A stretch of DNA of 64,000 nt, from NCBI GenBank assembly GCA_000004985.1, contig GG738878.1. One strand, 5' to 3'. Below, one piece after another: positions 47,873 to 60,976 of the stretch. Position 1 is the first letter of the stretch, and the number at the start of each line of letters is the position of its first letter. Made by a program: the position numbers and the translations under genes. The DNA is from Naegleria gruberi (Eukaryota). The notes under the pieces are model-generated. The model did no database searches. It worked only from the letters and a program-made list of their open reading frames with translations, and was not told the origin of the DNA.

Positions 47873-49928
47873 ATGACAATAAAAAATATGAAAACTTCTT
47901 CCACATTTGCCTCCTCAAGCAATAAGTCTTCCTTATCATCAATGCGAGGAAGTGGATTGAATAAATTATTTTGTAGTAATAATGATTATTATCGGAAAAG
48001 TGTTTGGATATTTGTGTTGATTTGTTCGGTATGGATGATCATGATTGGAAGTGGAGTGGATGCATATAGAATTAATTTTGATGAAAGTCATGGGAGTGTA
48101 AGTGTTCTTTTTTGATCTTTGTGTGGAAAGAGAGATTTATCAATATTTGTGGAATTTTCAAATTATTTAGTTTACTTCGGATGTAACTCAGGGAAAATTA
48201 TTGGATGAATATGAATTGGGAATGTATGCTAGAGAGGATCTTCCATTGAGAGTTTTAACAAGACCCATTGCTAATGGTGACACATTTGTTCAAGTTTATT
48301 GTAAGTACACTATTTAATGATACAATATATTTACGAGGTTTTTTTAGTAAATGTTAAACAATCAAGCATTCCAACTCCTGATACCAAATTAGTTCTCATT
48401 GTTGCTAACAGTGAGATACTTGCAACTGGTTTTAAGAAGGATCAGAAAGTATGTAATAATTATTAATTCTGTTTGGATCTGATTGAAATTATATTTTAGA
48501 ATGAATATTTGTGTGGAGACGAAGGATTAGTTCCAACTTCTCAAAGCACACTCGATGATGATGGAATTTTATATTACAAATATTTCAGTGGAGATGAAGT
48601 AATTGATGAGAATTTCGAAGTGCCATTAACAGGTCTCTACCAATACAAATTATTCTACTGTCCTGCCACTAACCCAACTAAGGAAAGACCAAAGTCTGGT
48701 GAAGCCAATTTCAAAATGAATGGTTACATTCAATTCATCAATCCATATGGTCACTTGCCAGGTCAATATTTCTTCTTCTTGCCAGTATGTATATTTGCTT
48801 AATATTTTCCTAATAATTCAATTCCAGTTCCAAGCATTCATGACAATTGCTTATATTGTTTTTGCTGTCCTTTGGTTTTTGGCCTCTATTTTCAATAGAA
48901 AGGAATTCTTAACTCTCCAATTCTACATTACTATTGTCTTGATGAGTTGTTTAGCAGAAGCTTTGATTGTCTATTTTGATTACTTTTTAACTAACAAAAT
49001 TGGAAGTCGTAACTTTGTTGTTCAACTTTGCTCAATGGTTATGACTGTCATTAGAAAGACTTGGACTAGACTCATCATTTTGGTGGTTTGTTCAGGATAC
49101 TCAAGTGCCACAAAGGAGGAGGATGATGAATCATCTGAAAATACCTCTTCTCAAAAGAAAGTAACAACAACCATGATCATTATTTATTCAGTTATATTTG
49201 CAATTTCATGCTCAGTTTCAGAATTTGGAGAATTTTTATTCTTTAGAGAGCTCATTTCACACACTCAATATTTGATCTCCATGGTTCCAACATCCTGCTT
49301 GGATTTCTTCTTCTATGTCTGGGCTCTTTACTTGCTCTACCATACTATGAAGATGTACAAGCCTTCAAATCCAAAAGCTGTCACTGCCAGAGAAAGGGCT
49401 TCCCCAGAATGGAAACATGCAGTTGCCAATAACCACTACTTCTACTTGTATAGAAGATTAATGTTTGCCATGATTATTTACGCTTGGACTGTGCTTATTT
49501 TCTTAGTTCTCCAATTCTTCTACGAATATGGTCAATACTACAGAAGTGCTTGGTATTTGAACTGGCTTTTTGACTCTGCATCTTACCAAATTGCATTCTT
49601 TGCCTTCTTTGTTTTAGTTGGTTTATTGTACAGACCTGCCAAACACAACTCACTTTACTTACATTCTGAACAACTCCCAACTGATGAATTGGATGCTGAT
49701 ATGATGCTAAAGGAAGGTACTGGTCTCGAATATCAAAGTGACGATAGTGATGAAAAGGATGTAGAAATGATGATGATGCAAAATAATGAGCCAATATCTA
49801 ACGATGACGAATCTGACTCTAAGGAAAGCAGAAAGAGTCAAGAAAAACTTGTATTCTCTGAAGATCATGAAACCCCAACAAGTACAACTCCTGCAGTTGA
49901 GAAGGTTGAGACCACCACTCAACAATAA
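47873..49928 (+). CDS. GPR107/GPR108/TMEM87-like (lung-7TM-receptor family) membrane protein, five exons
   Basis: Exons 47873..48097, 48171..48300, 48348..48448, 48500..48784 and 48828..49928, joined by GTAAGT/GTATGT...AG introns of 73, 47, 51 and 43 nt with consistent phases. Signal/TM at the N-terminus. Luminal domain ..DEYELGMYAREDLPLRVLTRPIANGDTFVQVY/LNVKQSS..LVLIVANSEILATGFKKDQK/NEYLCGDEGLVP..LFYCPATNP... Then a seven-TM block (FMTIAYIVFAVLWFL..LQFYITIVLMSCLAEALIVYFDYF..LCSMVMTVIRKTWTRLIILVV..) and an acidic C-terminal tail. Confidence 0.75.
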
Positions 49929-49939
49929 CTGTAAATAAA

Positions 49940-51679
49940 TTATTTATTATTTTCCTTCTCATTCTGGTAATTATTTATTGTTATGAAAAGTTTGTTGACG
50001 AGCCAATCAACAAGTGGTGAATGGGATTGCATATCTTTGAGTATCTTTTCTAATTCTTCTCCACTTCTTTTATCTTCACAATCTAGAATTCTTTCGAATA
50101 AATCTCCCATATTGGAAAGAACAAGATCTGACTTACTATGATCAAAATGGAGCTTGTCATCCTTAATAGTGACATAACCAAGCTTTTCGTAAATCTTATA
50201 AGTACTTATTGCTGAGATTATGTATGGTCTCAAACTTGACTTGTCAAACATGGCAAATCGTCTAAAATCTTGCATTGCAAAGGAGGCAAGTGATCTTGAC
50301 AACTCCTCAGATGAAATGTGACCATTCTTGTGGAGGAGCCTCATAGTAAAGAGTGCAGTAAGTTCAGCTCTTGGTTCTTCGAGGAGAGATTTAGTATCAA
50401 CCTTGATGTGTTCCTTAATGAACTCCAAGTTGTAAATTGCATGGCCAATTTCATGAGCAGCAATGTGATTCTTAATTGTATCGATGGTATTAATGTAGGA
50501 AGCAAGTTCTTCACTATTTTCACAGACCTTATTGACTAAACTGATGGTTTGGTGTCGTCTGGATTCGGTTGCTACTGGATCGAAATAAATCTTTACACCC
50601 TTCTTATTCTTTACTTCAGTTCTATTAGGAATGGATTGTCCAGAGAATTTAAAAGACAAGGATTGACCACAATGGAAAGGAATTGAATAAATGGAACACA
50701 TTGAGTTTTCGACAGCATAAATTCCATTGTCAGCAATTTCAGTATTTCTTGATTTGAAGTATTCAACCATTGATCCTTGAACTTTGGTCTTGATAAAATT
50801 GTTGGTTGATTCGTATTCTTCATCTACAAGACGGCAGCTGAAATCAGGAATACTCTTACATCTCAAAACATCTCCATATCCATACTCAATATCGTGAACA
50901 TATTGAATGTATGATTTCACATCCATCCACAATTCATCCAATTCAGTATTGAGTGTTTCCAATTTTTCTTTATCAGTTTCAATCAAAGTTTCTCTATATT
51001 TTTCAATATATTTAATATAAGCTTCCAAATCTTCATAATTTTCTCCACTATTTCTCAATGAATACAAATCATTCAATAATTCAGAAAATTGATTAATAAT
51101 TGGAGCAAATTCATTCTTGAAAAATTCACCATAAGAAACATCATAAAACTCATTAGTGGCCTCGTCCAACAAGATAATAGTATAAGAATTTGTTAATTTC
51201 CTATCAATAGTTGAAGCTCTCTTTTCCAATTCTTCAGCAACCTTATTTCCTTGAACTGCCTTCATCCACTTGACATAGAACGGATGATACTGTCCAGAAA
51301 TCATAGCAGCATGACGTAACAATGCACTATCAAACTTATTAAACAAATGATCAACTCCAGAATCCTTTTCCAAAGCCAAATATACAAAATCTCTTGCCAA
51401 TTGTTGTCTCTTATTACAAACATCAACAATTTTATAAAACTCTTCTGTAAAATCGGTAATTCCCTCAAAATTCTGATGAATAGCAGCTTGTGCTACAAGT
51501 GATTGTTTTTCCTCTCCGAGAATATTCAAGTCTTGTTGGAAATCTTGATGAGTAGCAAAGATTTCATCTGTAACCGAAACAATTTTCTTCAATAGGGGAA
51601 TTCGGGAGAGATTGGAAAAGCCTGATTTATATTGATTGAAAAGGGATTTGGAGGATTGAAGCAAAAGTGATGACGCCAT
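49940..51679 (-). CDS. Gluzincin-type zinc metallopeptidase (HEIGH...E), family uncertain (M3/oligopeptidase-like?)
   Basis: Zinc motif HIAAHEIGHAIYNLEF, followed about 25 residues later by LLEEPRAELTALF, a candidate third-ligand Glu resembling the M3 ExPSQ motif. 579 aa, no signal peptide, real ATG at 51679. Confidence 0.55.
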   Translation of the reverse strand: MASSLLLQSSKSLFNQYKSGFSNLSRIPLLKKIVSVTDEIFATHQDFQQDLNILGEEKQSLVAQAAIHQNFEGITDFTEEFYKIVDVCNKRQQLARDFVYLALEKDSGVDHLFNKFDSALLRHAAMISGQYHPFYVKWMKAVQGNKVAEELEKRASTIDRKLTNSYTIILLDEATNEFYDVSYGEFFKNEFAPIINQFSELLNDLYSLRNSGENYEDLEAYIKYIEKYRETLIETDKEKLETLNTELDELWMDVKSYIQYVHDIEYGYGDVLRCKSIPDFSCRLVDEEYESTNNFIKTKVQGSMVEYFKSRNTEIADNGIYAVENSMCSIYSIPFHCGQSLSFKFSGQSIPNRTEVKNKKGVKIYFDPVATESRRHQTISLVNKVCENSEELASYINTIDTIKNHIAAHEIGHAIYNLEFIKEHIKVDTKSLLEEPRAELTALFTMRLLHKNGHISSEELSRSLASFAMQDFRRFAMFDKSSLRPYIISAISTYKIYEKLGYVTIKDDKLHFDHSKSDLVLSNMGDLFERILDCEDKRSGEELEKILKDMQSHSPLVDWLVNKLFITINNYQNEKENNK

Positions 51680-51780
51680 TTTTTTTAATAAATTATTTAT
51701 ATTTTATTAATACTTTACAATGCAGTATTTAAATATATTTAATGTTTAGCTATGGACAAGGTAGTATTTAAAGATGATGA

Positions 51781-53206
51781 TTATTGAATGAGATCAGAGA
51801 TGGCTCTTTGAATATCACCTTCATACCTATTCAATAAGGTAATATTAAGAATGTGATTGGTGAAACCCATTTGATTCAATAATTTCAATTCTTTTTGATA
51901 TTTGTGTGGAATGGTTGTTTTCACAACTGGTTCTTCTTCTTCATCAGGAATTGATTCAATAATTGGATCTTGATTTTCAAGATTTTGATTGGAAACTTGT
52001 TGAGCTTGTTGTTGATTGACTGATTCATTTTCTTCTTGAGAAGCAATTGTTTCTTGTTGAATTTGTTCAACGACTGATTCAATTGGTTGATCTTCAATTA
52101 AATTGGAGAGAAGCAATGAAGTGGTCATTGTTGGAGTATTTTCAGTAACAATTTCTTAGTTCTTGAATTGGTTCTTCTTCTTTTGGTTGAGAAACAACAA
52201 TTGCAGATGGAGAAGTTTGAATTGGTTTCTCTTCTTGTTTCTTTTCTTGAGTTTGTGATTGTTGACTCTTTTGCTCTTCTTCTCTCATTTCCTTCATTCT
52301 TTGAAGTAATAATTCTCTGAATGATTGAGGTGTAGTTTCCTTCTTTTCTTTCTTTGTTTCTTCCTTTTCTGGTTGTTGTTGTTGTTGAGCAGCTTCATTA
52401 CTTGTTGGAATTCCCAAAAGATCAGCAAGACTAATTTCAATTCTTCTCACTTTTGGTTTTGTTTGAGGAGTGGAAGCAGAAACTTGTGGAAAGAATGATT
52501 GTTTTGGTTGAGCTGGATTTTCATTTGAGAAGGCAGATCTAAATGCCTTTTCAATCATATTTTCCCAAGATTGTTCTGCTTGTTGTTGAGGAGATTGTTT
52601 CTTTTGAGATTCAACTCTTGGTTGTTGGAATTGAGCAAATAAACATGCTGATGGTGATGCTTGTGAAATTCTATTGAAGGCAATATGTTGTTGAGGATAT
52701 TGTTGAGGATATGCTTGTTGTTGTGGTGATTTGATTGATTTCTTTTCACAAATAATCTTGGTCAATTTTCCTTTCATTAATTTCAACATGAATTGGAAAT
52801 CTCTTAAATTGGTCAATGAAACCAAATCATCTTCATCATCAACATAATGTAATTCAAATTGTCTCCTATCAATGGAATGTTCTCTCAAAACTCTATCAAA
52901 TAATTCGAAACTTCTCTCATGATTAGAATCAATTTCAAATCTCAAAACATTTGAAGCACTATTCAAATTGTGATTGAATTTTCCTTCAAAAACATAAATT
53001 TTGAATGGAACATTTCTTTCAACTTGTCTTGTTTGTGGAGAAATCAAAAGTGGAATTTTCTTTACATTATTTGCAAAATGTTGAGTTGGATAATCATTGA
53101 ATGATGAAGTTTCTCTCAAATTTGGATAAGAAACTTGTCTTGGAATAGTTTGTTGTTGAGGTTGGAAAGCAGCTGCAGTAGAAATTGGAATGTGGATGAA
53201 ACTCAT
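51781..53206 (-). CDS. PB1-domain ... UBA-domain protein (p62/NBR1-like architecture without a ZZ finger); two adjacent ORFs 53206..52142 and 52128..51781
   Basis: N-terminal PB1: FKIYVFEGKFNHNL..RFEIDSNHERSFELFDRVLREHSIDRRQFELHYVDDEDDLVSLTNLRDFQFMLKL. A Q/P-rich linker follows. C-terminal UBA: ELKLLNQMGFTNHILNITLLNRYEGDIQRAISDLIQ. The ORFs are in different frames, 13 nt apart. They can be joined by a 58-nt GTTACT...TTGAAG intron (weak donor) or may reflect a frameshift. Confidence 0.55.
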
Positions 53207-53384
53207 TTTGATTTGGTTGATTGATATTTAGTAGTAGTATTATTTACACTTCTTAATATTCAGATTTTGTACACAAAATTTGACAAGTAGTTTAAAAGAC
53301 TAGTTGTTGATGTTAATTAATTTTTTTTCTTATTGTTTTGCTTTCACATTTTTCACTCTTGATCTATTTATAGTTTTGATAAGG

Positions 53385-53640
53385 AAAATAATTTGAACGT
53401 GCTCAATACTTTGTACTCACAACAAGCGCAGTTATTTTTGTCGATTGAGTGAAGAACTCACAAATTCTTAATGTGTGATTGAAGGAAAGGAACCCACGGA
53501 ATTTCATACGGAATGTTATTTTTATCTTCGGAAGCAGAAATTTCCTTACTCGATTAAACTCAAGGAAACCAAAACAATCAAATGATAACATTCTTCCAAT
53601 CATTCAGTAAGGAAGTCATCAAAATTACACCCCATGTTTT
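53385..53640. repeat. About 250-bp non-coding block downstream of LRR gene copy 1; a paralogue of the block at 55437..55715
   Basis: Shared strings aatttgaacgtgctcaatactttg, aagaactcacaa.tt.ttaatgtgt, ggaac..ac..aatttca.acggaat.tta.t.tttatcttc..agaaatttccttact.gattaaact, at about 75% identity in the same order and orientation. Confidence 0.6.
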
Positions 53641-53876
53641 TACCTCCCTCTGCCCTCAATGTTATTGTTCTGTTCAATTCTTGCTTGGATGGAATAATAA
53701 TGGAGGAGGATAGGAATCTACATCTTTAACGGTCATTCTTTCATACTTTCAATCTCAGTACTGAAGATTGATCCGTTTTGTTTGAAGAAATGAACATTAT
53801 TCTATAACTTATCAAAGTGTTACTAAGGGATGAGAGAAAAATTTCAAACTGGGGATCTGGAAAGCTTAAACTTCAC

Positions 53877-55154
53877 TCAATATAATCCCTTATATGTAAG
53901 TGATGTTAATTGTTTCATTTCCCTTATATATTTGACTCCTTCATCACCAATTCGATTGGCACGAATATTAAGTGATATCAACTGTTTCATTTCACTTATC
54001 AATTTGGTTCCTTCATCACCAATTTGATTGTAAGAAATATCAAGTGATTTTAATTGTTTCATTTCACTCATAGATTTGGCTCCTTCATCACCAATTCGAT
54101 TGCCAGAAATATTAAGTGATGTTAATTGTTTCATTTCACTTATTAATTTGGCTCCTTCATCACCAATTTGATTGTTAGAAATATCAAGTGATGTTAATTG
54201 TTTCATTTCACTTATCAATTTGACTCCTTCACCACCAATTTGATTGTTAGAAATATTAAGTGATGTTAATTGTTTCATTTCACTTATCAATTTGGCTCCT
54301 TCATCACCAATTAGATTGTCAGAAATATTAAGTGATGTTAATTGTTTCATTTCACTTATAAACTTGGCTCCTTCTACACCAATTAGATTGTCAGAAATAT
54401 CAAGTGATGTTAATTGTTTCATTTCACTTATGAATTTGGCTCCTTCACCACCAATTTGAGTGAAACCAATATTAAGTGATGTTAATTGTCTGGTTTCACT
54501 TATCAATTTGGCTCCTTCATCACCAATTTCATTTTCACAAATATTAAGTGATATCAACTGTTTCATTTCACTTAGATATTTGGCCCCTTCTACACCAATT
54601 CGATTGCAACAAATATTAAGTGATGTTAATTGTTTCATTTCACTTATCAATTTGGCTCCTTCATCACCAATTAGATTGTCAGAAATATTAAGTGATGTTA
54701 ATTGTTTCATTTCACTTATCAATTTGGCTTCTTCATCACCAATTTCATTTTTACCAATATTGAGTGATATCAACTGTTTCATTTCACTTATCAATTTGGC
54801 TTCATCACCAATTCCATTGCCAGAAATATCAAGTGATGTCAATTGTTTCATTTTGCTAATGAATTTGGCTTCTTCAAAAGAATCAAGCAACCAATCAGAA
54901 TATGTAACATTAACAATACAATTCATAAATTGACTTTTCAAAAATAATTGAACTCGTGTCTTTGTAAATTTTTTGTTAAATTGAATAGCAAGTTTTGAAC
55001 GTTCCTTGATCACATTAAAGAATTGTTTTGAAATCAAGGAACAATTATTTAAAATAAACCATGAATCATCAATCATGGAAATTATTTCAAAACAAATGTC
55101 ATCTGAAAATATTTCTTGTTCCACTTTCACACCCTTTTTTACTTTCTCTTCCAT
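53877..55154 (-). CDS. F-box / leucine-rich-repeat protein (RNI-like 24-residue repeats), copy 1 of a tandem pair
   Basis: N-terminal F-box-like segment EIFSDDICFEIISMIDDSWFILNNCSLISKQFFNVIKERSKL. It is followed by about 13 near-identical repeats of LISEMKQLTSLNISxNxIGDEGAK. Real ATG at 55154. Confidence 0.7.
   Translation of the reverse strand: MEEKVKKGVKVEQEIFSDDICFEIISMIDDSWFILNNCSLISKQFFNVIKERSKLAIQFNKKFTKTRVQLFLKSQFMNCIVNVTYSDWLLDSFEEAKFISKMKQLTSLDISGNGIGDEAKLISEMKQLISLNIGKNEIGDEEAKLISEMKQLTSLNISDNLIGDEGAKLISEMKQLTSLNICCNRIGVEGAKYLSEMKQLISLNICENEIGDEGAKLISETRQLTSLNIGFTQIGGEGAKFISEMKQLTSLDISDNLIGVEGAKFISEMKQLTSLNISDNLIGDEGAKLISEMKQLTSLNISNNQIGGEGVKLISEMKQLTSLDISNNQIGDEGAKLISEMKQLTSLNISGNRIGDEGAKSMSEMKQLKSLDISYNQIGDEGTKLISEMKQLISLNIRANRIGDEGVKYIREMKQLTSLTYKGLY
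53900..54850. repeat. Tandem array of about 13 units of a 72-bp coding repeat (24-aa LRR unit) inside F-box/LRR gene copy 1
   Basis: Recurring ..ttaagtgatgttaattgtttcatttcacttatcaatttggctccttcatcaccaattagattg.. with 72-bp periodicity. The antisense + strand ORFs (NCFISLINLAPSSPIR...) are mirror translations of the same repeat. Confidence 0.8.
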
Positions 55155-55436
55155 ATTATTATTATTAAAATTGTTAGTGAATATTATTTGTTAAATATCT
55201 CCTCCGAATTAATGAATTGCTGATTTTCAAATTCTTATTTTTTTTTAAATGAGAAAATTTACACAGTTCGGACGATCATATGTTTTTTTAATAAATATTT
55301 AATATTTACTATTAGATGTAATTAGAAAAGTTGGGATAGGAAGATAGGAACTATTGTGCTTTGAAATATTTACATGAACCAATTTTATTCACCGAGTACA
55401 AATCAAACAATATTATATTGAATAATAAGAAAGATA

Positions 55437-55715
55437 GGGAAAACAATTTGAACGTGCTCAATACTTTGAATCACAACACAAATCCAGATTTATTGAATTG
55501 TTCTTTGCAGATTAAGTAAGAACTCACAATTTGTTAATGTGTATGAAAGGAACTTACAAAATTTCACACGGAATTTTATGTTTATCTTCAGGCAGAAATT
55601 TCCTTACTAGATTAAACTACCCATTCTATAACAAAAATAACAAAATCACATTCCGTATGAAATTCCAATCAAGTGATAACATTGATAAGTTATAGAATAA
55701 TGTTCATTTCTTCAA
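55437..55715. repeat. Paralogous downstream block of LRR gene copy 2, with an internal inverted repeat
   Basis: Same shared strings as 53385..53640. It additionally contains aaatttcacacggaatt ... cattccgtatgaaattcc, an inverted pair about 110 nt apart. The 32-nt segment gataagttatagaataatgttcatttcttcaa (55681..55712) occurs reverse-complemented at 53796..53830. Confidence 0.6.
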
Positions 55716-55772
55716 ATACAAGCAAGAGTCTTTAAAGCTAAGATTGGGAAGGTCTTCACTCAATTTAATCCC

Positions 55773-57128
55773 TTATATGAGCGTAATTGATGTTAATTGT
55801 TTCATTTCACTTATCAATTTGGCTCCTTCACCACCAATTCGATTGTCAGCAATATTAAGTGATGTTAATTGTTTCATTTCACTTATAAGTTTAGCTCCTT
55901 CTATACCAATTTGATTGTAAGAAATATCAAGTGATTTTAATTGTTTCATTTCACTTATCAATTTGGTTTCTTCATCACCAATTTCATTGTTAGAAATATT
56001 AAGTAATGTTAATTGTCTCATTTCACTTATCAATTTGGTTCCTTCATTACTAATTCGATTGCTACGAATATTAAGTGATATCAACTGTTTCATTTCACTT
56101 ATCAATTTGACTCCTTCTATACCAATTCTATTGTTAGAAATATTAAGTGATCTTAATTGTCTCATTTCACTTATGAATTTGGCTCCTTGATTAACAATTC
56201 GATTGGCACGAATATTAAGTGATATCAACTGCTTCATTTCACTTATCAATTTGGCTCCTTCATCACCAATTAGATTGTTAGAAATATTAAGTGATGTTAA
56301 TTGTTTCATTTCACTTATCAATTTGGTTCCTTCTATACCAATATCACTTTCACCAATATTAAGCGATGTTAATTGTCTCATTTCACTTATCAATTTGACT
56401 CCTTCAATACCAATTCGATTGCCACAAATATTAAGTGATGTTAATTGTCTCATTTCACGTATGCATTTGGCTCCTTCAACATCAACTTGAGTGTAAGAAA
56501 TATCAAGTGATGCTAATTGTTTCATTTCACTTATATATTTGGCTCCTTCATCAATTTCATTTTTACCAATATTGAGTGATATCAACTGTTTCATTTCACT
56601 TAGATATTTGGCTCCTTCATCACCAATTAGATTGGCAGAAATATCAAGTGACGTTAATTGTTTCATTTCACTTATCAATTTGGCTTCTTCATCACCAATT
56701 CCATTGCCAGAAATACTAAGTGATGTCAATTGTTTCATTTTACTAATGAATTTGGCTTCTTCAAAAGAATCAAGCAACCAATCAGAATATGTAACATTAA
56801 CAATACAATTCATAAATTGACTTTTCAAAAATAATTGAACTCGTTTCTTTGTAAATTTTTTTTTAAATTGAATAGTAAGTTTTGAACGTTCCTTGATCAC
56901 ATTAAAGAATTGTTTTGAAATCAAGGAACAATTATTTAAAATAAACCATGAATCATCAATCATGGAAATTATTTCAAAACAAATGTCATCTGAAAATATT
57001 TCATGTTCCAGTTTTACAACCTTTTTTGATTTCTCTTCCATATTATTATTATTAAAATTGTTAGTGAATATTTCCTCCGAATTAATGAATTGATGATTTT
57101 CAAAATCTTGTCTGTTTCGTTTGCTCAT
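55773..57128 (-). CDS. F-box / leucine-rich-repeat protein, copy 2 of the tandem pair (longer N-terminus)
   Basis: Same F-box segment and the same 24-residue LRR units (GAKLISEMKQLTSLNI..). About 80% nucleotide identity to copy 1 in the repeat block. It has a 30-aa N-terminal extension MSKRNRQDFENHQF.. Real ATG at 57128. Confidence 0.7.
   Translation of the reverse strand: MSKRNRQDFENHQFINSEEIFTNNFNNNNMEEKSKKVVKLEHEIFSDDICFEIISMIDDSWFILNNCSLISKQFFNVIKERSKLTIQFKKKFTKKRVQLFLKSQFMNCIVNVTYSDWLLDSFEEAKFISKMKQLTSLSISGNGIGDEEAKLISEMKQLTSLDISANLIGDEGAKYLSEMKQLISLNIGKNEIDEGAKYISEMKQLASLDISYTQVDVEGAKCIREMRQLTSLNICGNRIGIEGVKLISEMRQLTSLNIGESDIGIEGTKLISEMKQLTSLNISNNLIGDEGAKLISEMKQLISLNIRANRIVNQGAKFISEMRQLRSLNISNNRIGIEGVKLISEMKQLISLNIRSNRISNEGTKLISEMRQLTLLNISNNEIGDEETKLISEMKQLKSLDISYNQIGIEGAKLISEMKQLTSLNIADNRIGGEGAKLISEMKQLTSITLI
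55790..56770. repeat. Tandem array of about 13 units of the same 72-bp LRR-coding repeat inside F-box/LRR gene copy 2
   Basis: Same unit as in 53900..54850, with diverged copies. The reverse-strand ORFs 55963..56820 are repeat artefacts. Confidence 0.8.
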
Positions 57129-57328
57129 TTTTTAATAAAATTTTAATAATATTTAATTTTTTTAGAATATGGTGTGATTGATCACTTGTAAGTATTGACT
57201 TCATCACAATCCTTCAAGTGTTCTCTTTATTGGTATGGTTAATGTATTATTCTCCATTTGTAGTAGTGACCTTTTTGTGAGTTAATTTCTTGCAGTTTTA
57301 ATTTGGTAAAGATTTTGATTCATCTCAA

Positions 57329-57628
57329 TCAATGCTCATTATTCTTGATTTCTTTAAATTGTTCCAAAACATCGAATTCATGTTCCAAAACATCATCCAA
57401 TTCATTTGCCTGTTGTTGTTGAGATGTAAAATCATCATTAGTATTGCGCCATCCTTTCGTGAGGAGGAAATTCTTCAAGAAGTTTTCATTATTATCATTT
57501 AGTTCATGATTATTTACATCTTGATTATCAAGATTCAACGATTTGATCTTGTCAAGAGATTTTTCAATATCTTCTTCGAGTGGAATTTCCTCCTTTTCAA
57601 CATTTTCGTCGGCTTTAGTTTGTGACAT
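57329..57628 (-). CDS. Small acidic protein (99 aa), unknown function
   Basis: Intact ORF with a real ATG at 57628. D/E/N-rich. No motif recognised. Confidence 0.35.
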   Translation of the reverse strand: MSQTKADENVEKEEIPLEEDIEKSLDKIKSLNLDNQDVNNHELNDNNENFLKNFLLTKGWRNTNDDFTSQQQQANELDDVLEHEFDVLEQFKEIKNNEH

Positions 57629-57714
57629 TTTTTTTCAATTTGTTTGGATTTATTGTTGATCATTCAAGTAGTTTGTGTAACAATTATTGTTGTTTTATTA
57701 CAAGATAGCTTGAT

Positions 57715-59577
57715 TTAATCAGAATCTTCGTCTGTGCTACTCATATCCAAATCATCTTCTTCATCTTCATCAGAATCTGATGAGGACATGCTCAGTGAAA
57801 TATCTGAATCAGAATCGTCCTTTTGTTGCTGTTGCTGTTGTTGAGCTTGTTTGGATCCAATGATTTTAGTGGTTGGTACAGTGGTGGTAGTTGGTGTGCT
57901 TGTTGCTGATTTGGGAGTGTTATTGGAATTGGCATTGTTGGATGGAGAGGAAGATAGTTGGGCACTACTATTATTGTTATAGAGCTTGGATAGGAGTTCA
58001 GATTGCATGAAATTGGATTCAATGGTTGGAGGTGATTGAACCATTGGTTGAGCAGCTGTTGTGGAGGGAGTTGTAGAAATTGGATTGGAGGAGGTGATTG
58101 GCTTATTTGGTGATGTGGTTGGTTGGGAGTTGTTTTGTGAAGGGGTAGAAACTTGACGAATGGTTTGGTTGGAAGTTTTTGTAAAACTGGAAACCGTGTT
58201 GAGAGGTTTGGCAGCTGTATTTGATGGTTTGGCAGCAATCACTCTTGGAATACTCTTGATATGATTCTCAATTTCTTGCTCTGATCGTTTCATTAACCAA
58301 GCATATTCATCTTCAGTATTCGAATCATCTTTGGTAATGGAAACAACATCCTGCTCCACAAGTTTATCCTTTCTATTTTCTACAATTCTAATACAATCCA
58401 AACTTCCAGAATTTTCCATATTTTGATAAAGTGGATTTAAGAATTCAATTTCGTTAGCATCCAATTCAAATCTTTCAATGAAAAACAAAACCCAATCGAA
58501 TGGGGTTGGTGTTTGTGAGTTTGAGCCACCACTATGAGATTTTAGCAATGAAGTTAATGTGGATTGACCAATTATTTGTTGACCACTTGATTGTGGAAGA
58601 ATTCCAGTAGGTGTCAGCGATTTTCTCTTTTCACTCACAGTCAATCCACCTGTATTCACAGGAGAAGATGTCATTCCTAATGAGCCAACAATTGGAGAAC
58701 CCAAAGCAAATTTAGCACTCAATCTCTTATTATTAGGTCCTAACATTTGTTGTGAGACCATGAATTTCAGATCATTTGATTTCAGGGTGATTTGATGTTT
58801 CAGGGAGGCAAATTGTTGAGACATTTGAAGTAGCATGTTTGATTGTTTCAAATGTGATTTAATATCTGATGTGGAGGTTATAAATTGATAGCCATGTGGT
58901 GGAATGAATTGTGGTTGTGAATCTCCTCTCACCTCATCATAATATTCTTCTCTATTGAGAATATTTTCTAATTCTGATGGAATTTCAAAAATCTGATCAA
59001 ATCCAAGCTTGAAAGAAGGATCCTTATCACAAATATTACTCAATGCAAATGTAAATTGTAACAATTGCTGATCATTATCAAAGGAAAAGACAAATTCTTG
59101 AGTTTCATTCTCATTTACAACATGATAGAGAACTAGACGATTTGACTTGGCAAAAACATCTTTTTCTTCACTTGGTGTATAGTCATCTTCATAATCATCA
59201 TAATCACTTGAATCACTTTGCATTGATTCTTTTCTCTTTCTATTCAATTCTTGAACTTTCTCATCAGGAGTTTTCACATTTCTAATCTGAACAAAGAAAC
59301 TATAATTCTTGATTGGAATACAATCTCTCAACTTGAGATTTTCATTAAATAAAAAGATGGCATATTCGCCTCCATTCTGACGATGATAAATTAATGTCAA
59401 TAAAACAACACGATGTTTAGTTTCGGAAATTATTTGGGTGACAGGACAGAGAAATCTACATTGTTCTAGATTAGGATTTAGAATAGATGTTATTTCTTTG
59501 TGTATGGAGTTAAGTGTACGAAGTGTTTTTAGTTTTGAATTTGATGAAGTGATTGAAGGAAGATCAACATCAGCCAT
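57715..59577 (-). CDS. Hypothetical protein (620 aa) with a structured N-terminal about 220 aa and a long Ser/Thr/Pro/Gln-rich, acidic-tailed C-terminal region
   Basis: Real ATG at 59577. The N-terminal region (..RFLCPVTQIISETKHRVVLLTLIYHRQNGGEYAIFLFNENLKL..VLYHVVNENETQEFVFSFDNDQQLLQFTFALSN) looks globular (PH/GRAM-like?). The remainder is low complexity and ends in a DSDSD acidic tail. Confidence 0.45.
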   Translation of the reverse strand: MADVDLPSITSSNSKLKTLRTLNSIHKEITSILNPNLEQCRFLCPVTQIISETKHRVVLLTLIYHRQNGGEYAIFLFNENLKLRDCIPIKNYSFFVQIRNVKTPDEKVQELNRKRKESMQSDSSDYDDYEDDYTPSEEKDVFAKSNRLVLYHVVNENETQEFVFSFDNDQQLLQFTFALSNICDKDPSFKLGFDQIFEIPSELENILNREEYYDEVRGDSQPQFIPPHGYQFITSTSDIKSHLKQSNMLLQMSQQFASLKHQITLKSNDLKFMVSQQMLGPNNKRLSAKFALGSPIVGSLGMTSSPVNTGGLTVSEKRKSLTPTGILPQSSGQQIIGQSTLTSLLKSHSGGSNSQTPTPFDWVLFFIERFELDANEIEFLNPLYQNMENSGSLDCIRIVENRKDKLVEQDVVSITKDDSNTEDEYAWLMKRSEQEIENHIKSIPRVIAAKPSNTAAKPLNTVSSFTKTSNQTIRQVSTPSQNNSQPTTSPNKPITSSNPISTTPSTTAAQPMVQSPPTIESNFMQSELLSKLYNNNSSAQLSSSPSNNANSNNTPKSATSTPTTTTVPTTKIIGSKQAQQQQQQQKDDSDSDISLSMSSSDSDEDEEDDLDMSSTDEDSD

Positions 59578-60903: not shown

Positions 60904-60976
60904 TGCTGACGGACGGGATCGAACCGGCGACCAATGGCTTATTAGACCAACGCTCTACCGACTGAGCTACGCCAGC
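60904..60976 (-). tRNA. tRNA-Ile, anticodon AAT
   Basis: Minus strand GCTGGCGTAGCTCAGTCGGTAGAGCGTTGGTCTAATAAGCCATTGGTCGCCGGTTCGATCCCGTCCGTCAGCA folds as a 73-nt cloverleaf. The 7-bp acceptor stem includes one G·U pair. The D-arm is GCTC/GAGC with an AGTCGGTA loop. Conserved residues U8, A14, G18, G19, U33, purine 37, G53 and TΨCGA are present. The anticodon loop is CTAATAA, giving anticodon AAT. There is one mismatch each in the anticodon and T stems. No CCA is encoded, as in eukaryotes. Confidence 0.75.

What the first reader, a model, noticed from the sequence alone, without database searches (positions are those of the whole stretch)
53350..57150. Tandem duplicated F-box/LRR genes built from 72-bp repeats, with a co-duplicated downstream element of which one 32-nt piece is inverted
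Two paralogous genes at 53877..55154 and 55773..57128 each contain about 13 tandem 72-bp units encoding the 24-aa RNI-type repeat LISEMKQLTSLNISNNQIGDEGAK, behind an F-box. The duplication unit of about 1.9 kb includes about 250 bp of non-coding sequence 3' of each gene, at about 75% identity. Inside that block, gataagttatagaataatgttcatttcttcaa is in opposite orientation in the two copies (53796..53830 versus 55681..55712). Copy 2 also carries a 16-bp inverted repeat able to form a hairpin. This looks like a rapidly evolving, recombination-prone substrate-receptor family. The conserved 3' block may be a shared regulatory, UTR or small-RNA element rather than neutral sequence.
Basis: seen in the sequence. 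Interest (0 to 1): 0.5.

Follow-up and report, generated by a model that had tools for sequence, protein, structure and literature searches.

The report
Duplicated Naegleria F-box-like LRR gene pair
Two neighbouring, fast-changing leucine-rich-repeat genes of the amoeba Naegleria gruberi arose by an ordinary local DNA duplication, and the "conserved block" behind them is duplicated spacer DNA that includes part of the next gene's promoter, not a new RNA element.

Summary
The window is Naegleria gruberi NEG-M. Two minus-strand ORFs, 53877..55154 (425 aa) and 55773..57128 (451 aa), each carry 13 full and 1 partial 72-bp RI-like LRR units behind a divergent F-box-like segment. Neither ORF is in the reference proteome. 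About 245 nt of downstream DNA is co-duplicated at 79% ungapped identity. An exact 33-mer lies in opposite orientation in the two copies, and copy 2 has a real hairpin.

The interpretation needs correcting:
- **Type of duplication:** it is a DNA-level duplication. One breakpoint lies inside the 5' coding end of the LRR gene, so gene 1 lacks the promoter and the first ~6 codons; its next ~23 codons have decayed and its ORF starts at Met30. The other breakpoint lies inside the promoter of the neighbouring NBR1-like gene.
- **Most conserved patch:** it is shared with the upstream region of that gene's orthologue in another amoeba. It sits next to a TATA-like box just outside the duplication.
- **No RNA element:** there is no Rfam match, no conserved fold and no further copy.
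- **Hairpin:** it predates the duplication and is decaying.
- **Array evolution:** the LRR arrays show turnover, gene conversion and variation concentrated at predicted binding positions.

This is an ordinary member of a lineage-specific family, of low to moderate interest.

The parts
55773..57128 (-). Gene 2: full-length F-box-like/LRR protein of 451 aa. It starts MSKRNRQ..., as its paralogues do.
   Evidence: ORF. Pfam LRR_6 E 2e-39. The N-terminus matches paralogues P0001 and P0002. The exact sequence is not in the protein collection.
53877..55154 (-). Gene 1: 5'-truncated duplicate of 425 aa. Its ORF starts at the equivalent of Met30 of gene 2. The F-box-like segment and all LRRs are intact.
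   Evidence: ORF. LRR_6 E 3e-63. Alignment of the 5' ends. In a simulation the ORF stays open in only 0.04-2.5% of runs at 5-10.5% substitutions per site.
55784..56763 (-). 72-bp LRR array of gene 2 (13.7 copies).
   Evidence: Tandem Repeats Finder. Unit list.
53892..54876 (-). 72-bp LRR array of gene 1 (13.7 copies). It is more homogenised than the gene 2 array (mean unit identity 86%).
56859..56999 (-). F-box-like segment of gene 2 (aa 44-90, FSDDICFEIISMIDDSWFILNNCSLISKQFFNVIKERSKL...).
   Evidence: Aligned paralogues hit PF00646/PF12937 over this segment. Helices H18-26 and H31-52 of the AF2 model.
54972..55112 (-). F-box-like segment of gene 1.
   Evidence: It lies within the tract that is 98% identical to gene 2.
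54800..55099 (-). Gene-conversion tract over the N-terminal domain, 98% identical to 56687-56986.
   Evidence: Family D8. The sliding identity profile runs at 96-100%, flanked by 72-79% on the 5' side.
55155..55238 (-). Decayed remnant of the ancestral coding leader of gene 1. It is homologous to gene 2 codons ~7-29, has a 14-nt insertion and is out of frame. The 5' breakpoint of the duplication is at ~55238 / 57112.
   Evidence: alignment. (79% over 90 nt).
55239..55432 (.). Unique 194-nt spacer between the two duplication units, with no detectable homologue in the window.
53378..53622 (-). Co-duplicated block, copy 1. It lies 255-499 nt downstream of the gene 1 stop codon and 172-416 nt upstream of the NBR1-like gene's ATG.
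   Evidence: blastn E 4e-37. 78.7% ungapped identity.
55433..55672 (-). Co-duplicated block, copy 2. It lies downstream of gene 2 and upstream of the truncated gene 1.
53384..53465 (-). The part of block copy 1 that is conserved with the upstream region of the NBR1-like orthologue in locus L003. It includes the 24-mer CAAAGTATTGAGCACGTTCAAATT (53390-53413; copy 2: 55445-55468).
   Evidence: blastn 53225-53464 vs L003 2324-2557, E 2e-12. Three-way alignment. For the block-only part, local alignment score 26 against 14.3 +/- 2.2 for shuffles, 0 of 2000 reaching it.
53362..53372 (-). TATA-like box (TATAAATAGA) of the NBR1-like gene, shared with L003. It lies just outside the duplication breakpoint at 53378 and is absent from copy 2.
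51781..53206 (-). Neighbouring NBR1-like gene (PB1 + UBA domains; reference model P0249, 455 aa). Its promoter was partly duplicated.
   Evidence: Pfam PB1 and UBA_NBR1_C. P0249 is 100% identical.
53776..53818 (.). 43-nt core, copy 1 (exact 33-mer 53781-53813), inverted relative to copy 2. The 33-mer starts 64 nt downstream of the gene 1 stop.
   Evidence: No significant homology beyond the core in either orientation.
55679..55721 (.). 43-nt core, copy 2 (exact 33-mer 55684-55716). The 33-mer starts 57 nt downstream of the gene 2 stop.
55560..55664 (-). Copy-2 inverted repeat (arms 55560-55582 and 55642-55664), forming a 17-bp stem on the minus strand.
53498..53522 (.). Copy-1 homologue of the left arm. 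It is 24/25 complementary to the copy-2 right arm. The copy-1 right arm survives only as a decayed remnant around 53601-53622.

Best explanation
A roughly 1.9-kb piece of Naegleria gruberi chromosome was duplicated locally at the DNA level.

The duplicated piece ran from inside the promoter of the NBR1-like gene, through the intergenic DNA and the whole LRR array, to about codon 6 of an F-box-like/LRR gene.

The result is one full-length gene (gene 2) and one 5'-truncated copy (gene 1). Gene 1 lost its own promoter and start codon and now opens at an internal methionine. It still keeps the F-box-like segment and all its repeats.

Since the duplication:
- The two LRR arrays have been reshuffled by unequal exchange and short gene conversions.
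- A ~300-nt conversion tract has re-homogenised the N-terminal domain.
- Amino-acid changes have accumulated at the positions predicted to face the ligand.

The 'conserved 3' block' is the remnant of the duplicated intergenic DNA, at background divergence of about 79%. Its best-kept patch is an upstream element of the NBR1-like gene's promoter. Selection holds that patch constant in copy 1, which is enough to make the two copies look conserved there.

The small inverted pieces are mutational scars:
- The copy-2 hairpin descends from an inverted repeat that already existed before the duplication. It is decaying in both copies.
- The 43-nt core is an in-place micro-inversion or a short inverted-orientation conversion, of the kind produced by replication template switching.

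What is shown: the anatomy, the breakpoints, the conversion tract, the cross-species conservation of the promoter patch, and the absence of RNA-family or structural signal.

What is inferred: the order of events, the mechanism of the inversion, and that both proteins work as SCF substrate receptors.
For: - Organism and locus.
- ORFs and arrays.
- 5' breakpoint inside the coding sequence, 14-nt insertion, and no similarity further upstream.
- 3' homology and inverted pieces.
- Block occurs only twice in the window.
- Block absent from the locus of the closest retrievable paralogue, L001.
- Zero hits in JGI metagenomes.
- No Rfam or tRNA match.
- Fold z-scores of -1.1 and 0.0 for the whole blocks.
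- Flanks are not decayed LRR units.
- Window 53225-53464 aligns to the upstream region of the NBR1-like orthologue in L003. blastn gives E 2e-12. The local score is 59 against 22.6 +/- 3.5 for shuffles, with 0 of 2000 shuffles reaching it. Two control intergenic regions are not significant.
- The shared TATA-like box lies just outside the breakpoint.
- The copy-1 remnant of the right hairpin arm shows that the inverted repeat is ancestral.
- Repeat-unit identity matrix.
- Per-codon diversity.
- ORF-survival simulation.
- Family-level F-box hits.
- Template switching is a documented source of in-place inversions, spacer inversions and hairpins: PMC5453318, PMC8604942, PMC8794818.
Against: - The 33-35-nt perfect run inside the inverted core is longer than expected at 79% background identity. 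My rough estimate is p ~0.02-0.03. It therefore needs a recent conversion event, constraint or luck.
- A 194-nt unique spacer separates the two units. A simple head-to-tail duplication does not predict it.
- No outgroup for the LRR genes' own flank could be retrieved, so the direction of the inversion is unknown.
- No whole-genome search of N. gruberi was possible, so further copies of the block elsewhere cannot be excluded.
- No expression data were available.
Confidence: 0.7

Rival explanations
1. Promoter capture. The duplicated fragment of the NBR1-like promoter (block copy 2, 55433-55672) now helps to drive the truncated gene 1, which lost its own promoter. In that case both block copies are kept because both act as upstream regulatory DNA for the gene downstream of them.
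For: - Gene 1 has no ancestral promoter or start codon, yet its 425-codon ORF is intact. The simulation makes this very unlikely under neutral decay.
- Block copy 2 lies 279-518 nt upstream of the gene 1 ATG, in the same orientation as copy 1 relative to the NBR1-like gene.
- The cross-species conserved patch is 34/36 identical between the copies.
- Copy 2 still scores above shuffles against L003 (38 of 2000 shuffles reach its score).
Against: - The TATA-like box and the proximal ~170 nt of the promoter were not duplicated.
- 34/36 identity is compatible with constraint on copy 1 alone (my estimate, p ~0.25).
- The intact ORF can also be explained by conversion from intact repeat templates.
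- No expression data were available.
Confidence: 0.15
2. One reading: the block is a functional 3' UTR, regulatory or small-RNA element that belongs to the LRR genes.
For: - The block is real and lies downstream of both stop codons.
- Conservation is patchy, with patches of 92-96%.
- Copy 2 forms a stable hairpin on the mRNA-sense strand (z -4.4).
Against: - Overall identity is no higher than in the decayed 5' leader of gene 1.
- The hairpin is destroyed in copy 1, and the mismatches in copy 2 are not compensated.
- No Rfam match.
- The block is not present downstream of the close paralogue in L001.
- The best-conserved patch is explained by the neighbouring gene's promoter.
Confidence: 0.08
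3. Antisense cross-talk. Because the 33-mer is inverted, the 3' ends of the two paralogous transcripts would carry 33 nt of perfect mutual complementarity. They could form double-stranded RNA that feeds RNA interference or couples their expression.
For: - The 33-mer is exact, in opposite orientation, and sits at nearly the same distance from each stop codon (64 and 57 nt).
- It is better conserved than its surroundings, which do not align in either orientation.
Against: - It is a single pair of sequences.
- There is no evidence that either copy is transcribed or that the 33-mer lies inside the UTRs.
- A recent short conversion or template switch explains the perfect identity without any function.
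Confidence: 0.04
4. The block, or its inverted pieces, is part of a small mobile element (MITE-like). Alternatively, the second copy is an assembly artefact.
For: Inverted repeats are present and there is a 194-nt unique insert between the units.
Against: - There are only two copies in 64 kb, none in L001-L003 and none in JGI metagenomes.
- No terminal inverted repeats bound the block.
- Gene 1 is not a retrocopy, because the duplicated DNA runs into the neighbour's promoter and has no poly(A) tail.
- The copies differ by 15-25% and by many indels, which an assembly duplication would not produce.
Confidence: 0.03

Closest known systems
F-box/LRR-repeat (FBXL-type) substrate receptors of SCF ubiquitin ligases, such as Skp2, FBXL17 and KDM2A/FBXL11
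   Same: - An N-terminal ~45-aa helical segment with the F-box pattern is followed directly by an LRR solenoid.
- Aligned paralogues reach Pfam F-box thresholds.
- The top two structural neighbours of the N-terminal model are KDM2A-SKP1 and SCF-FBXL17.
- FBXL17 also appears among the neighbours of the longer model.
   Different: - The two window proteins themselves give no Pfam F-box hit. They have F-S-D-D in place of L-P-x-E, and F in place of the conserved W.
- The structural matches are not significant (E 1.0 and 2.2).
- The repeats are 24-aa RI-like (LRR_6) units, not the 26-aa cysteine-containing type typical of FBXL proteins. That last comparison is from my own knowledge of LRR classes.
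Ribonuclease-inhibitor-like (RI-like, Pfam LRR_6) leucine-rich repeats
   Same: - The motif L-x-x-L-x-I-x-x-N-x-I-G-x-E-G-A is present.
- LRR_6 is the strongest Pfam hit (E 3e-63 and 2e-39).
- Ribonuclease inhibitor and NLRP LRR domains are among the structural neighbours.
   Different: The period is 24 residues rather than the 28-29 typical of RI-like repeats (my own knowledge). The units are also extremely uniform, encoded by 72-bp units 81-85% alike.
Tandemly duplicated, concertedly evolving LRR receptor gene clusters, such as plant R-gene and NLR clusters
   Same: - Local duplication.
- Repeat turnover without positional orthology.
- Conversion tracts.
- Amino-acid diversity focused on the x positions of LxxLxLxxN.
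   Different: There are only two genes here. They have an F-box-like head rather than an NB-ARC or TIR head. The diversity was measured among repeat units, not among alleles or orthologues.
Short template-switch mutations: in-place inversions, spacer inversion between inverted repeats, and de novo hairpins (PMC5453318, PMC8604942, PMC8794818)
   Same: A 33-43-nt segment is inverted in place, with unalignable flanks. A nearby inverted duplication creates a hairpin.
   Different: - There is no outgroup, so no event can be reconstructed.
- The hairpin predates the gene duplication.
- No clear short inverted repeats flank the inverted core.

Membership tests
F-box/LRR (FBXL-type) SCF substrate receptor | N-terminal F-box domain recognisable by sequence (Pfam PF00646 / PF12937) | tested here: inconclusive
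   - Both window proteins give no hit, even at E <= 10.
- Paralogues aligned over the same segment do hit. P0004 scores 21.8 bits against a cut-off of 20.5, and P0008 scores 24.5 against 24.3.
- 11 of 16 aligned members hit, and 14 of 40 further members hit at E <= 0.01.
- The only PDB sequence hit of the family profile is the F-box of FBXO42, at E 0.71.
F-box/LRR (FBXL-type) SCF substrate receptor | Three-helix F-box fold packed against the first LRRs | tested here: inconclusive
   - The AF2 model of aa 30-250 has pLDDT 87, with helices at 18-26 and 31-52 before the solenoid.
- The N-terminal-only model has pLDDT 73. Its two best PDB neighbours are KDM2A-SKP1 and SCF-FBXL17, but at E 1.0 and 2.2.
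F-box/LRR (FBXL-type) SCF substrate receptor | LRR domain C-terminal to the F-box | tested here: met
   LRR_6, LRR_8 and LRR_4 hits. There are 13 full units and 1 partial unit per gene. The model is a solenoid with LRR neighbours at E 1e-8 to 1e-6.
F-box/LRR (FBXL-type) SCF substrate receptor | Binds Skp1 and assembles into an SCF ligase | not testable with these tools
   This needs a binding assay or a complex prediction with N. gruberi Skp1.
RI-like LRR class | Consensus LxxLxLxxNxLGxxGA, with LRR_6 as the best model | tested here: met
   (LRR_6 E 3e-63 / 2e-39). Unit consensus LISEMKQLTSLNISNNQIGDEGAK.
RI-like LRR class | Repeat period of 28-29 residues | tested here: not met
   The period is 24 residues (72 bp) in 24 of 26 units and 23 residues in the other two.
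Known structured RNA family (Rfam), tRNA or tmRNA in the 3' block | Covariance-model match at or near the gathering score | tested here: not met
   The only gathering-level hit in the window is a tRNA at 60904-60976. In 53200-55800 the best E-values are 1.9-9, all far below the gathering scores, and most fall inside the LRR arrays.
Conserved RNA hairpin (pre-miRNA-like) | Stem kept in both copies, with compensatory changes | tested here: not met
   Copy 2 has the stem (z -4.4). In copy 1 the equivalent region has z -0.2, and its right arm has decayed through a 12-nt insertion and substitutions.
Segmental (DNA-level) tandem duplication with gene conversion | Colinear homology across coding and non-coding DNA, discrete breakpoints, and tracts of much higher identity than the flanks | tested here: met
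   Identity is 98% over 300 nt, against 73-79% in both flanks. The breakpoints are at 53378/55433 and at ~55238/57112.
Mobile element (MITE or retrocopy) | Many dispersed copies, terminal inverted repeats with target-site duplication, or a poly(A) tail | tested here: not met
   - There are two copies only in 64 kb.
- None in L001-L003 and none in JGI metagenomes.
- No poly(A) at the 3' boundary.
- The full N. gruberi genome could not be searched.
Promoter element of the NBR1-like gene | Sequence conservation upstream of the orthologous gene in another species, at a similar distance from the ATG | tested here: met
   - Window 53225-53464 aligns with L003 2324-2557 (E 2e-12).
- None of 2000 shuffles reach the score, and two control regions are not significant.
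- The patch ends 172 nt from the ATG in the window and 155 nt from it in L003.
- The TATA-like box is shared.
- Promoter activity itself was not tested.

The most novel reading that the evidence does not exclude
The duplication produced new regulatory wiring.

- The truncated LRR gene 1 may now be driven by a captured fragment of the NBR1-like autophagy-receptor promoter.
- Separately, the in-place inversion of a perfectly conserved 33-mer would give the two paralogous transcripts mutually complementary 3' ends. Those ends could generate double-stranded RNA and couple or silence the pair.

Either would be a concrete case of a small rearrangement creating new regulation in a young gene pair of a free-living amoeba.
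Probability: 0.1. Interest if true: 0.45.

Novelty: new member of a known kind. Interest (0 to 1): 0.22.

Why it matters
The main value is clean-up and annotation.

- **Annotation gap:** two intact family members are missing from the N. gruberi reference proteome. The best database hit is a paralogue at 70% identity.
- **Lesson on conserved flanks:** an apparently conserved 3' element turns out to be duplicated intergenic DNA that includes part of a neighbour's promoter. Conservation between young paralogue flanks is not evidence of a shared RNA or UTR element.
- **Model locus:** this is a compact example of LRR array turnover and gene conversion. Variation is focused on predicted ligand-facing positions, in a lineage-specific F-box-like/LRR family of about 130 clusters at 50% identity.
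- **Candidate promoter motif:** the cross-species conserved patch and its TATA-like box give a candidate Naegleria promoter motif for the NBR1-like gene.

None of this changes current understanding of these systems.

Tried and rejected
- **Known RNA.** Rfam at gathering and at E <= 10, plus ARAGORN, found nothing in the block.
- **Stable RNA fold across both copies.** The whole blocks have z -1.1 and 0.0. Only copy 2 has the hairpin.
- **Flanks as decayed LRR units.** nhmmer with a model built from 24 units found no hit better than E 1. The weak 70% inverted matches between the core and the LRR sequence (I3, I4) are therefore treated as chance.
- **Protein-coding block.** The indels of 1, 2 and 5 nt break any reading frame, and the 66-aa ORF at 53403-53603 is not conserved in copy 2.
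- **A 3' exon after an intron.** There is no GT donor before either stop codon, and the two C-terminal tails are read in different frames.
- **A 69-nt inversion.** blastn extends the inverted match to 69 nt. The part beyond the 43-nt core is not significant on its own, since 24% of shuffles score as well.
- **A recent origin for the copy-2 right arm from copy 1.** It matches the copy-1 left arm at 24/25. This is better explained by an ancestral inverted repeat, because copy 1 keeps a decayed right arm.
- **Retrieving paralogous N. gruberi loci.** Look-ups for P0001, P0002 and P0250 failed because these genes are not in the gene-position index.
- **Metagenome scans.** JGI scans for the 24-mer and the 27-mer gave 0 hits.
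- **Literature.** A search found nothing specific on this family.
- **Assembly artefact and retrocopy.** Both were rejected for the reasons given under the rival explanations.

Full report
**What the window is**

Four window ORFs are exact matches to Naegleria gruberi reference proteins, for example 57715..59577 = EFC42685 / NAEGRDRAFT_80305. All four lie on one 395,411-bp scaffold. G+C is about 33% across the window. The finding therefore sits inside a large scaffold of the NEG-M assembly, not at a contig end.

**Checking the observation**

Two minus-strand ORFs are present, at 53877..55154 (425 aa) and 55773..57128 (451 aa). Tandem Repeats Finder reports 72-bp arrays of 13.7 copies at 53892-54876 (85% matches) and at 55784-56763 (81%). 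Cutting the proteins gives 13 full units and one truncated unit per gene. The consensus is LISEMKQLTSLNISNNQIGDEGAK, and two units are 23 aa long.

Downstream of both stop codons there is direct homology between 53378-53622 and 55433-55672. It is 73.5% identical over 260 gapped columns (E 4e-37) and 78.7% over ungapped columns.

The inverted piece is real. An exact 33-mer lies at 53781-53813 (-) and at 55684-55716 (+), with none expected by chance. It sits inside a 43-nt match of 93%.

Copy 2 has an inverted repeat at 55560-55582 / 55642-55664 (19 of 23). On the minus strand it folds into a 17-bp stem (dG -32.9 kcal/mol, z -4.4). The plus strand folds less well (z -2.0). Only three local inverted repeats of this quality exist in the 64 kb.

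The copies differ too much for an assembly duplication: 15-25% by substitution, plus many indels.

**The genes**

Both proteins are dominated by Pfam LRR_6 (E 3e-63 and 2e-39). Neither gives any F-box hit, even for the isolated N-terminus at E <= 10.

The N-terminal segment (FSDDICFEIISMIDDSWFILNNCSLISKQFFNVIKERSKL) aligns with paralogues in which the same segment does hit the Pfam F-box models:
- 11 of 16 aligned members hit, two of them above Pfam's own cut-offs (P0004 21.8 bits against 20.5; P0008 24.5 against 24.3).
- 14 of 40 further members hit. These were recovered with a profile of the N-terminal domain.
- That profile finds 132 cluster representatives at E <= 1e-3, among 1.84 billion.

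Its only PDB sequence hit is the F-box of FBXO42, at E 0.71.

An AF2 model of residues 30-250 (pLDDT 87) shows two N-terminal helices followed by an LRR solenoid. The fold neighbours are LRR proteins, including FBXL17. An N-terminal-only model (pLDDT 73) has KDM2A-SKP1 and SCF-FBXL17 as its two best neighbours, but not significantly (E 1.0 and 2.2).

I therefore call the head 'F-box-like'. It is supported by transitive homology and is not demonstrated for these two proteins.

Neither ORF is in the protein collection. The best hit among 5.8 billion sequences is a paralogue at 70% identity. Both genes are evidently unannotated in the reference proteome.

**How the pair evolved**

Aligning the 5' ends shows that homology starts abruptly at about 55238 / 57112. 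That point is about codon 6 of gene 2. Upstream of it, identity drops to 30-44%, which is the random level for this composition.

Gene 1 therefore lacks the ancestral promoter and the MSKRNRQ... start that the paralogues share. Its leader remnant (55155-55238) carries a 14-nt insertion and is out of frame. Its ORF opens at the equivalent of Met30.

From about 55113 the two genes become 98-100% identical: 300 nt at 98%, 54800-55099 against 56687-56986. On the 5' side this tract is flanked by 72-79% identity. That pattern is the signature of a gene-conversion tract.

In the arrays, repeat units are not positionally orthologous, except for unit 1. Some units are 96-99% alike within gene 1 and between the genes; for example, unit 3 of gene 1 and unit 7 of gene 2 are 99% identical. 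This shows unit turnover and short conversions.

Among the 24 full-length units, the structural positions are invariant or nearly so (Q7, L8, L11, I13, N16, I18, K24). Non-synonymous diversity far exceeds synonymous diversity at positions 9, 14, 15, 17 and 23, which are the x positions of LxxLxLxxNxI.

A simulation shows that gene 1's ORF would survive neutral substitution at the flank's level in only 0.04% of runs, and in 2.5% at half that level. Gene 1 is therefore maintained, either by selection or by conversion from intact templates.

In a related species (contig L002), the orthologues of the DUF7897 gene and of the 620-aa gene are adjacent. The NBR1-like gene, both LRR genes and a 99-aa ORF are absent from that position. 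This arrangement is lineage-specific.

**What the 'conserved 3' block' is**

Several tests argue against an RNA or UTR element:
- It occurs only twice in the window.
- It is absent downstream of the closest retrievable paralogue, L001.
- It gives no hits in JGI metagenomes.
- It has no Rfam or tRNA match.
- The whole blocks have no unusual folding energy.
- It is not made of decayed LRR units.
- Its indels of 1, 2, 5, 6, 12 and 15 nt rule out coding.
- Its identity is no higher than that of gene 1's dead 5' leader.

The decisive result came from the neighbour. The gene downstream on the same strand (51781..53206) encodes an NBR1-like protein with PB1 and UBA domains (reference model P0249). 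Its orthologue, at 50% amino-acid identity, lies on a 7.3-kb contig from another amoeba, L003.

The upstream region of that orthologue (L003 2324-2557) aligns with window 53225-53464:
- blastn gives E 2e-12.
- The local alignment score is 59, against 22.6 +/- 3.5 for shuffles, and 0 of 2000 shuffles reach it.
- Two control intergenic regions are not significant.

This alignment crosses the duplication breakpoint at 53378. The part that lies inside the block (about 53384-53465) is significant on its own: score 26 against 14.3 +/- 2.2, with 0 of 2000 shuffles reaching it.

The three-way alignment shows that the block's longest perfect run, CAAAGTATTGAGCACGTTCAAATT, corresponds to CAAAATATTAAGCGCGCTCAAATT in L003. 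In copy 1 and in L003 it is followed by AAACT(T)ATAAATAGA, a TATA-like box. Copy 2 lacks that box, because the box lies just outside the breakpoint. The patch ends 172 nt from the ATG in the window and 155 nt from it in L003.

The distal part of the block is therefore upstream regulatory DNA of the NBR1-like gene, copied along with the LRR gene. Constraint on copy 1 alone is enough to explain 34/36 identity in that patch (my estimate, p ~0.25). The remainder of the block (53466-53622) has no outgroup support and looks like neutral intergenic or 3'-flank DNA.

**The inverted pieces**

The 25-nt inverted match between copy 1 (53498-53522) and copy 2 (55642-55666) is 24/25. It is the right arm of the copy-2 hairpin. 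Copy 1 retains a decayed direct homologue of that arm (53601-53622 aligns with 55649-55672), interrupted by an insertion. The inverted repeat therefore predates the duplication and is eroding in both copies without compensatory changes. That argues against a conserved RNA hairpin.

The 43-nt core has no significant homology beyond its ends in either orientation. In both copies the 33-mer starts about 60 nt after the stop codon. Its 33-35-nt perfect run is longer than expected at 79% background identity (my estimate, p ~0.02-0.03). The simplest reading is an in-place micro-inversion, or a recent short conversion in inverted orientation. Replication template switching produces events of this type (PMC5453318, PMC8604942, PMC8794818). 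Without an outgroup, neither the direction nor the mechanism can be fixed.

**Unexplained residue**

- A 194-nt unique spacer (55239-55432) separates the two units.
- The 33-mer is perfectly conserved.
- The truncated gene 1 keeps an intact ORF even though it has no ancestral promoter.

These three points leave room for a promoter-capture reading or an antisense reading, which I rate at about 0.1 together.

**Verdict**

- The '3' regulatory / UTR / small-RNA element' part is largely replaced by a simpler account: duplicated intergenic DNA that includes a fragment of the neighbouring gene's promoter, plus mutational inverted scars.
- This is a new, unannotated member pair of a known kind of gene family. 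Interest is low to moderate.

Noticed in passing
window 53877-55154 and 55773-57128: Both intact LRR ORFs are missing from the N. gruberi reference proteome. The exact sequences are not in the collection, and the best hit among 5.8 billion proteins is a paralogue at 70% identity. They were probably masked as repeats during annotation.
   Followed up: partly
window 51781-53206 (-): - The NBR1-like gene (PB1 + UBA) has a 96%-identical paralogue on the same scaffold (P0250) and a 79% paralogue on another scaffold (P0251).
- In both paralogues, the stretch ...EQVKEKEIVTENTPTMTTSLLLSNLIED... is read through.
- At this locus the frame ends in a stop (…ELRNCY*), and the reference model P0249 bridges it with an intron.
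- This could be a real intron, a disabling mutation or a sequence error.
   Followed up: no
window 49940-57714 versus L002 2916-6277: In a related species, the DUF7897 gene is in the opposite orientation and lies about 20 nt from the orthologue of the 620-aa gene. The ~6 kb carrying the NBR1-like gene, both LRR genes and a 99-aa ORF is absent there. This is a rearrangement breakpoint between species.
   Followed up: partly
window 53362-53413 (-) and L003 2379-2429: A conserved upstream patch plus a TATA-like box (TATAAATAGA) lies about 135-205 nt before the ATG of the NBR1-like gene in two amoeba species. It is a candidate Naegleria core-promoter arrangement.
   Followed up: partly
window 60904-60976 (-): A tRNA-Ile (anticodon AAT) is the only Rfam gathering-level hit in the window.
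   Followed up: no
window 48720-49928 (+): The GOST-family seven-transmembrane ORF has no N. gruberi protein among its hits. It is 100% identical to a protein on a 2.7-kb ENA metagenome contig (P0121). This looks like another unannotated gene, and it shows that N. gruberi or a near-identical strain is present in that sample.
   Followed up: no
window 53749-53771: Copy 1 has a 23-nt near-perfect palindrome (TCAATCTCAGTACTGAAGATTGA) next to the inverted core. Copy 2 has no equivalent.
   Followed up: no
L001 2086-2877: A close family member from a metagenomic Naegleria has only about 4 LRR units. Its ORF then runs into unrelated sequence, next to an amino-acid transporter gene. Repeat number therefore varies widely within the family.
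   Followed up: no
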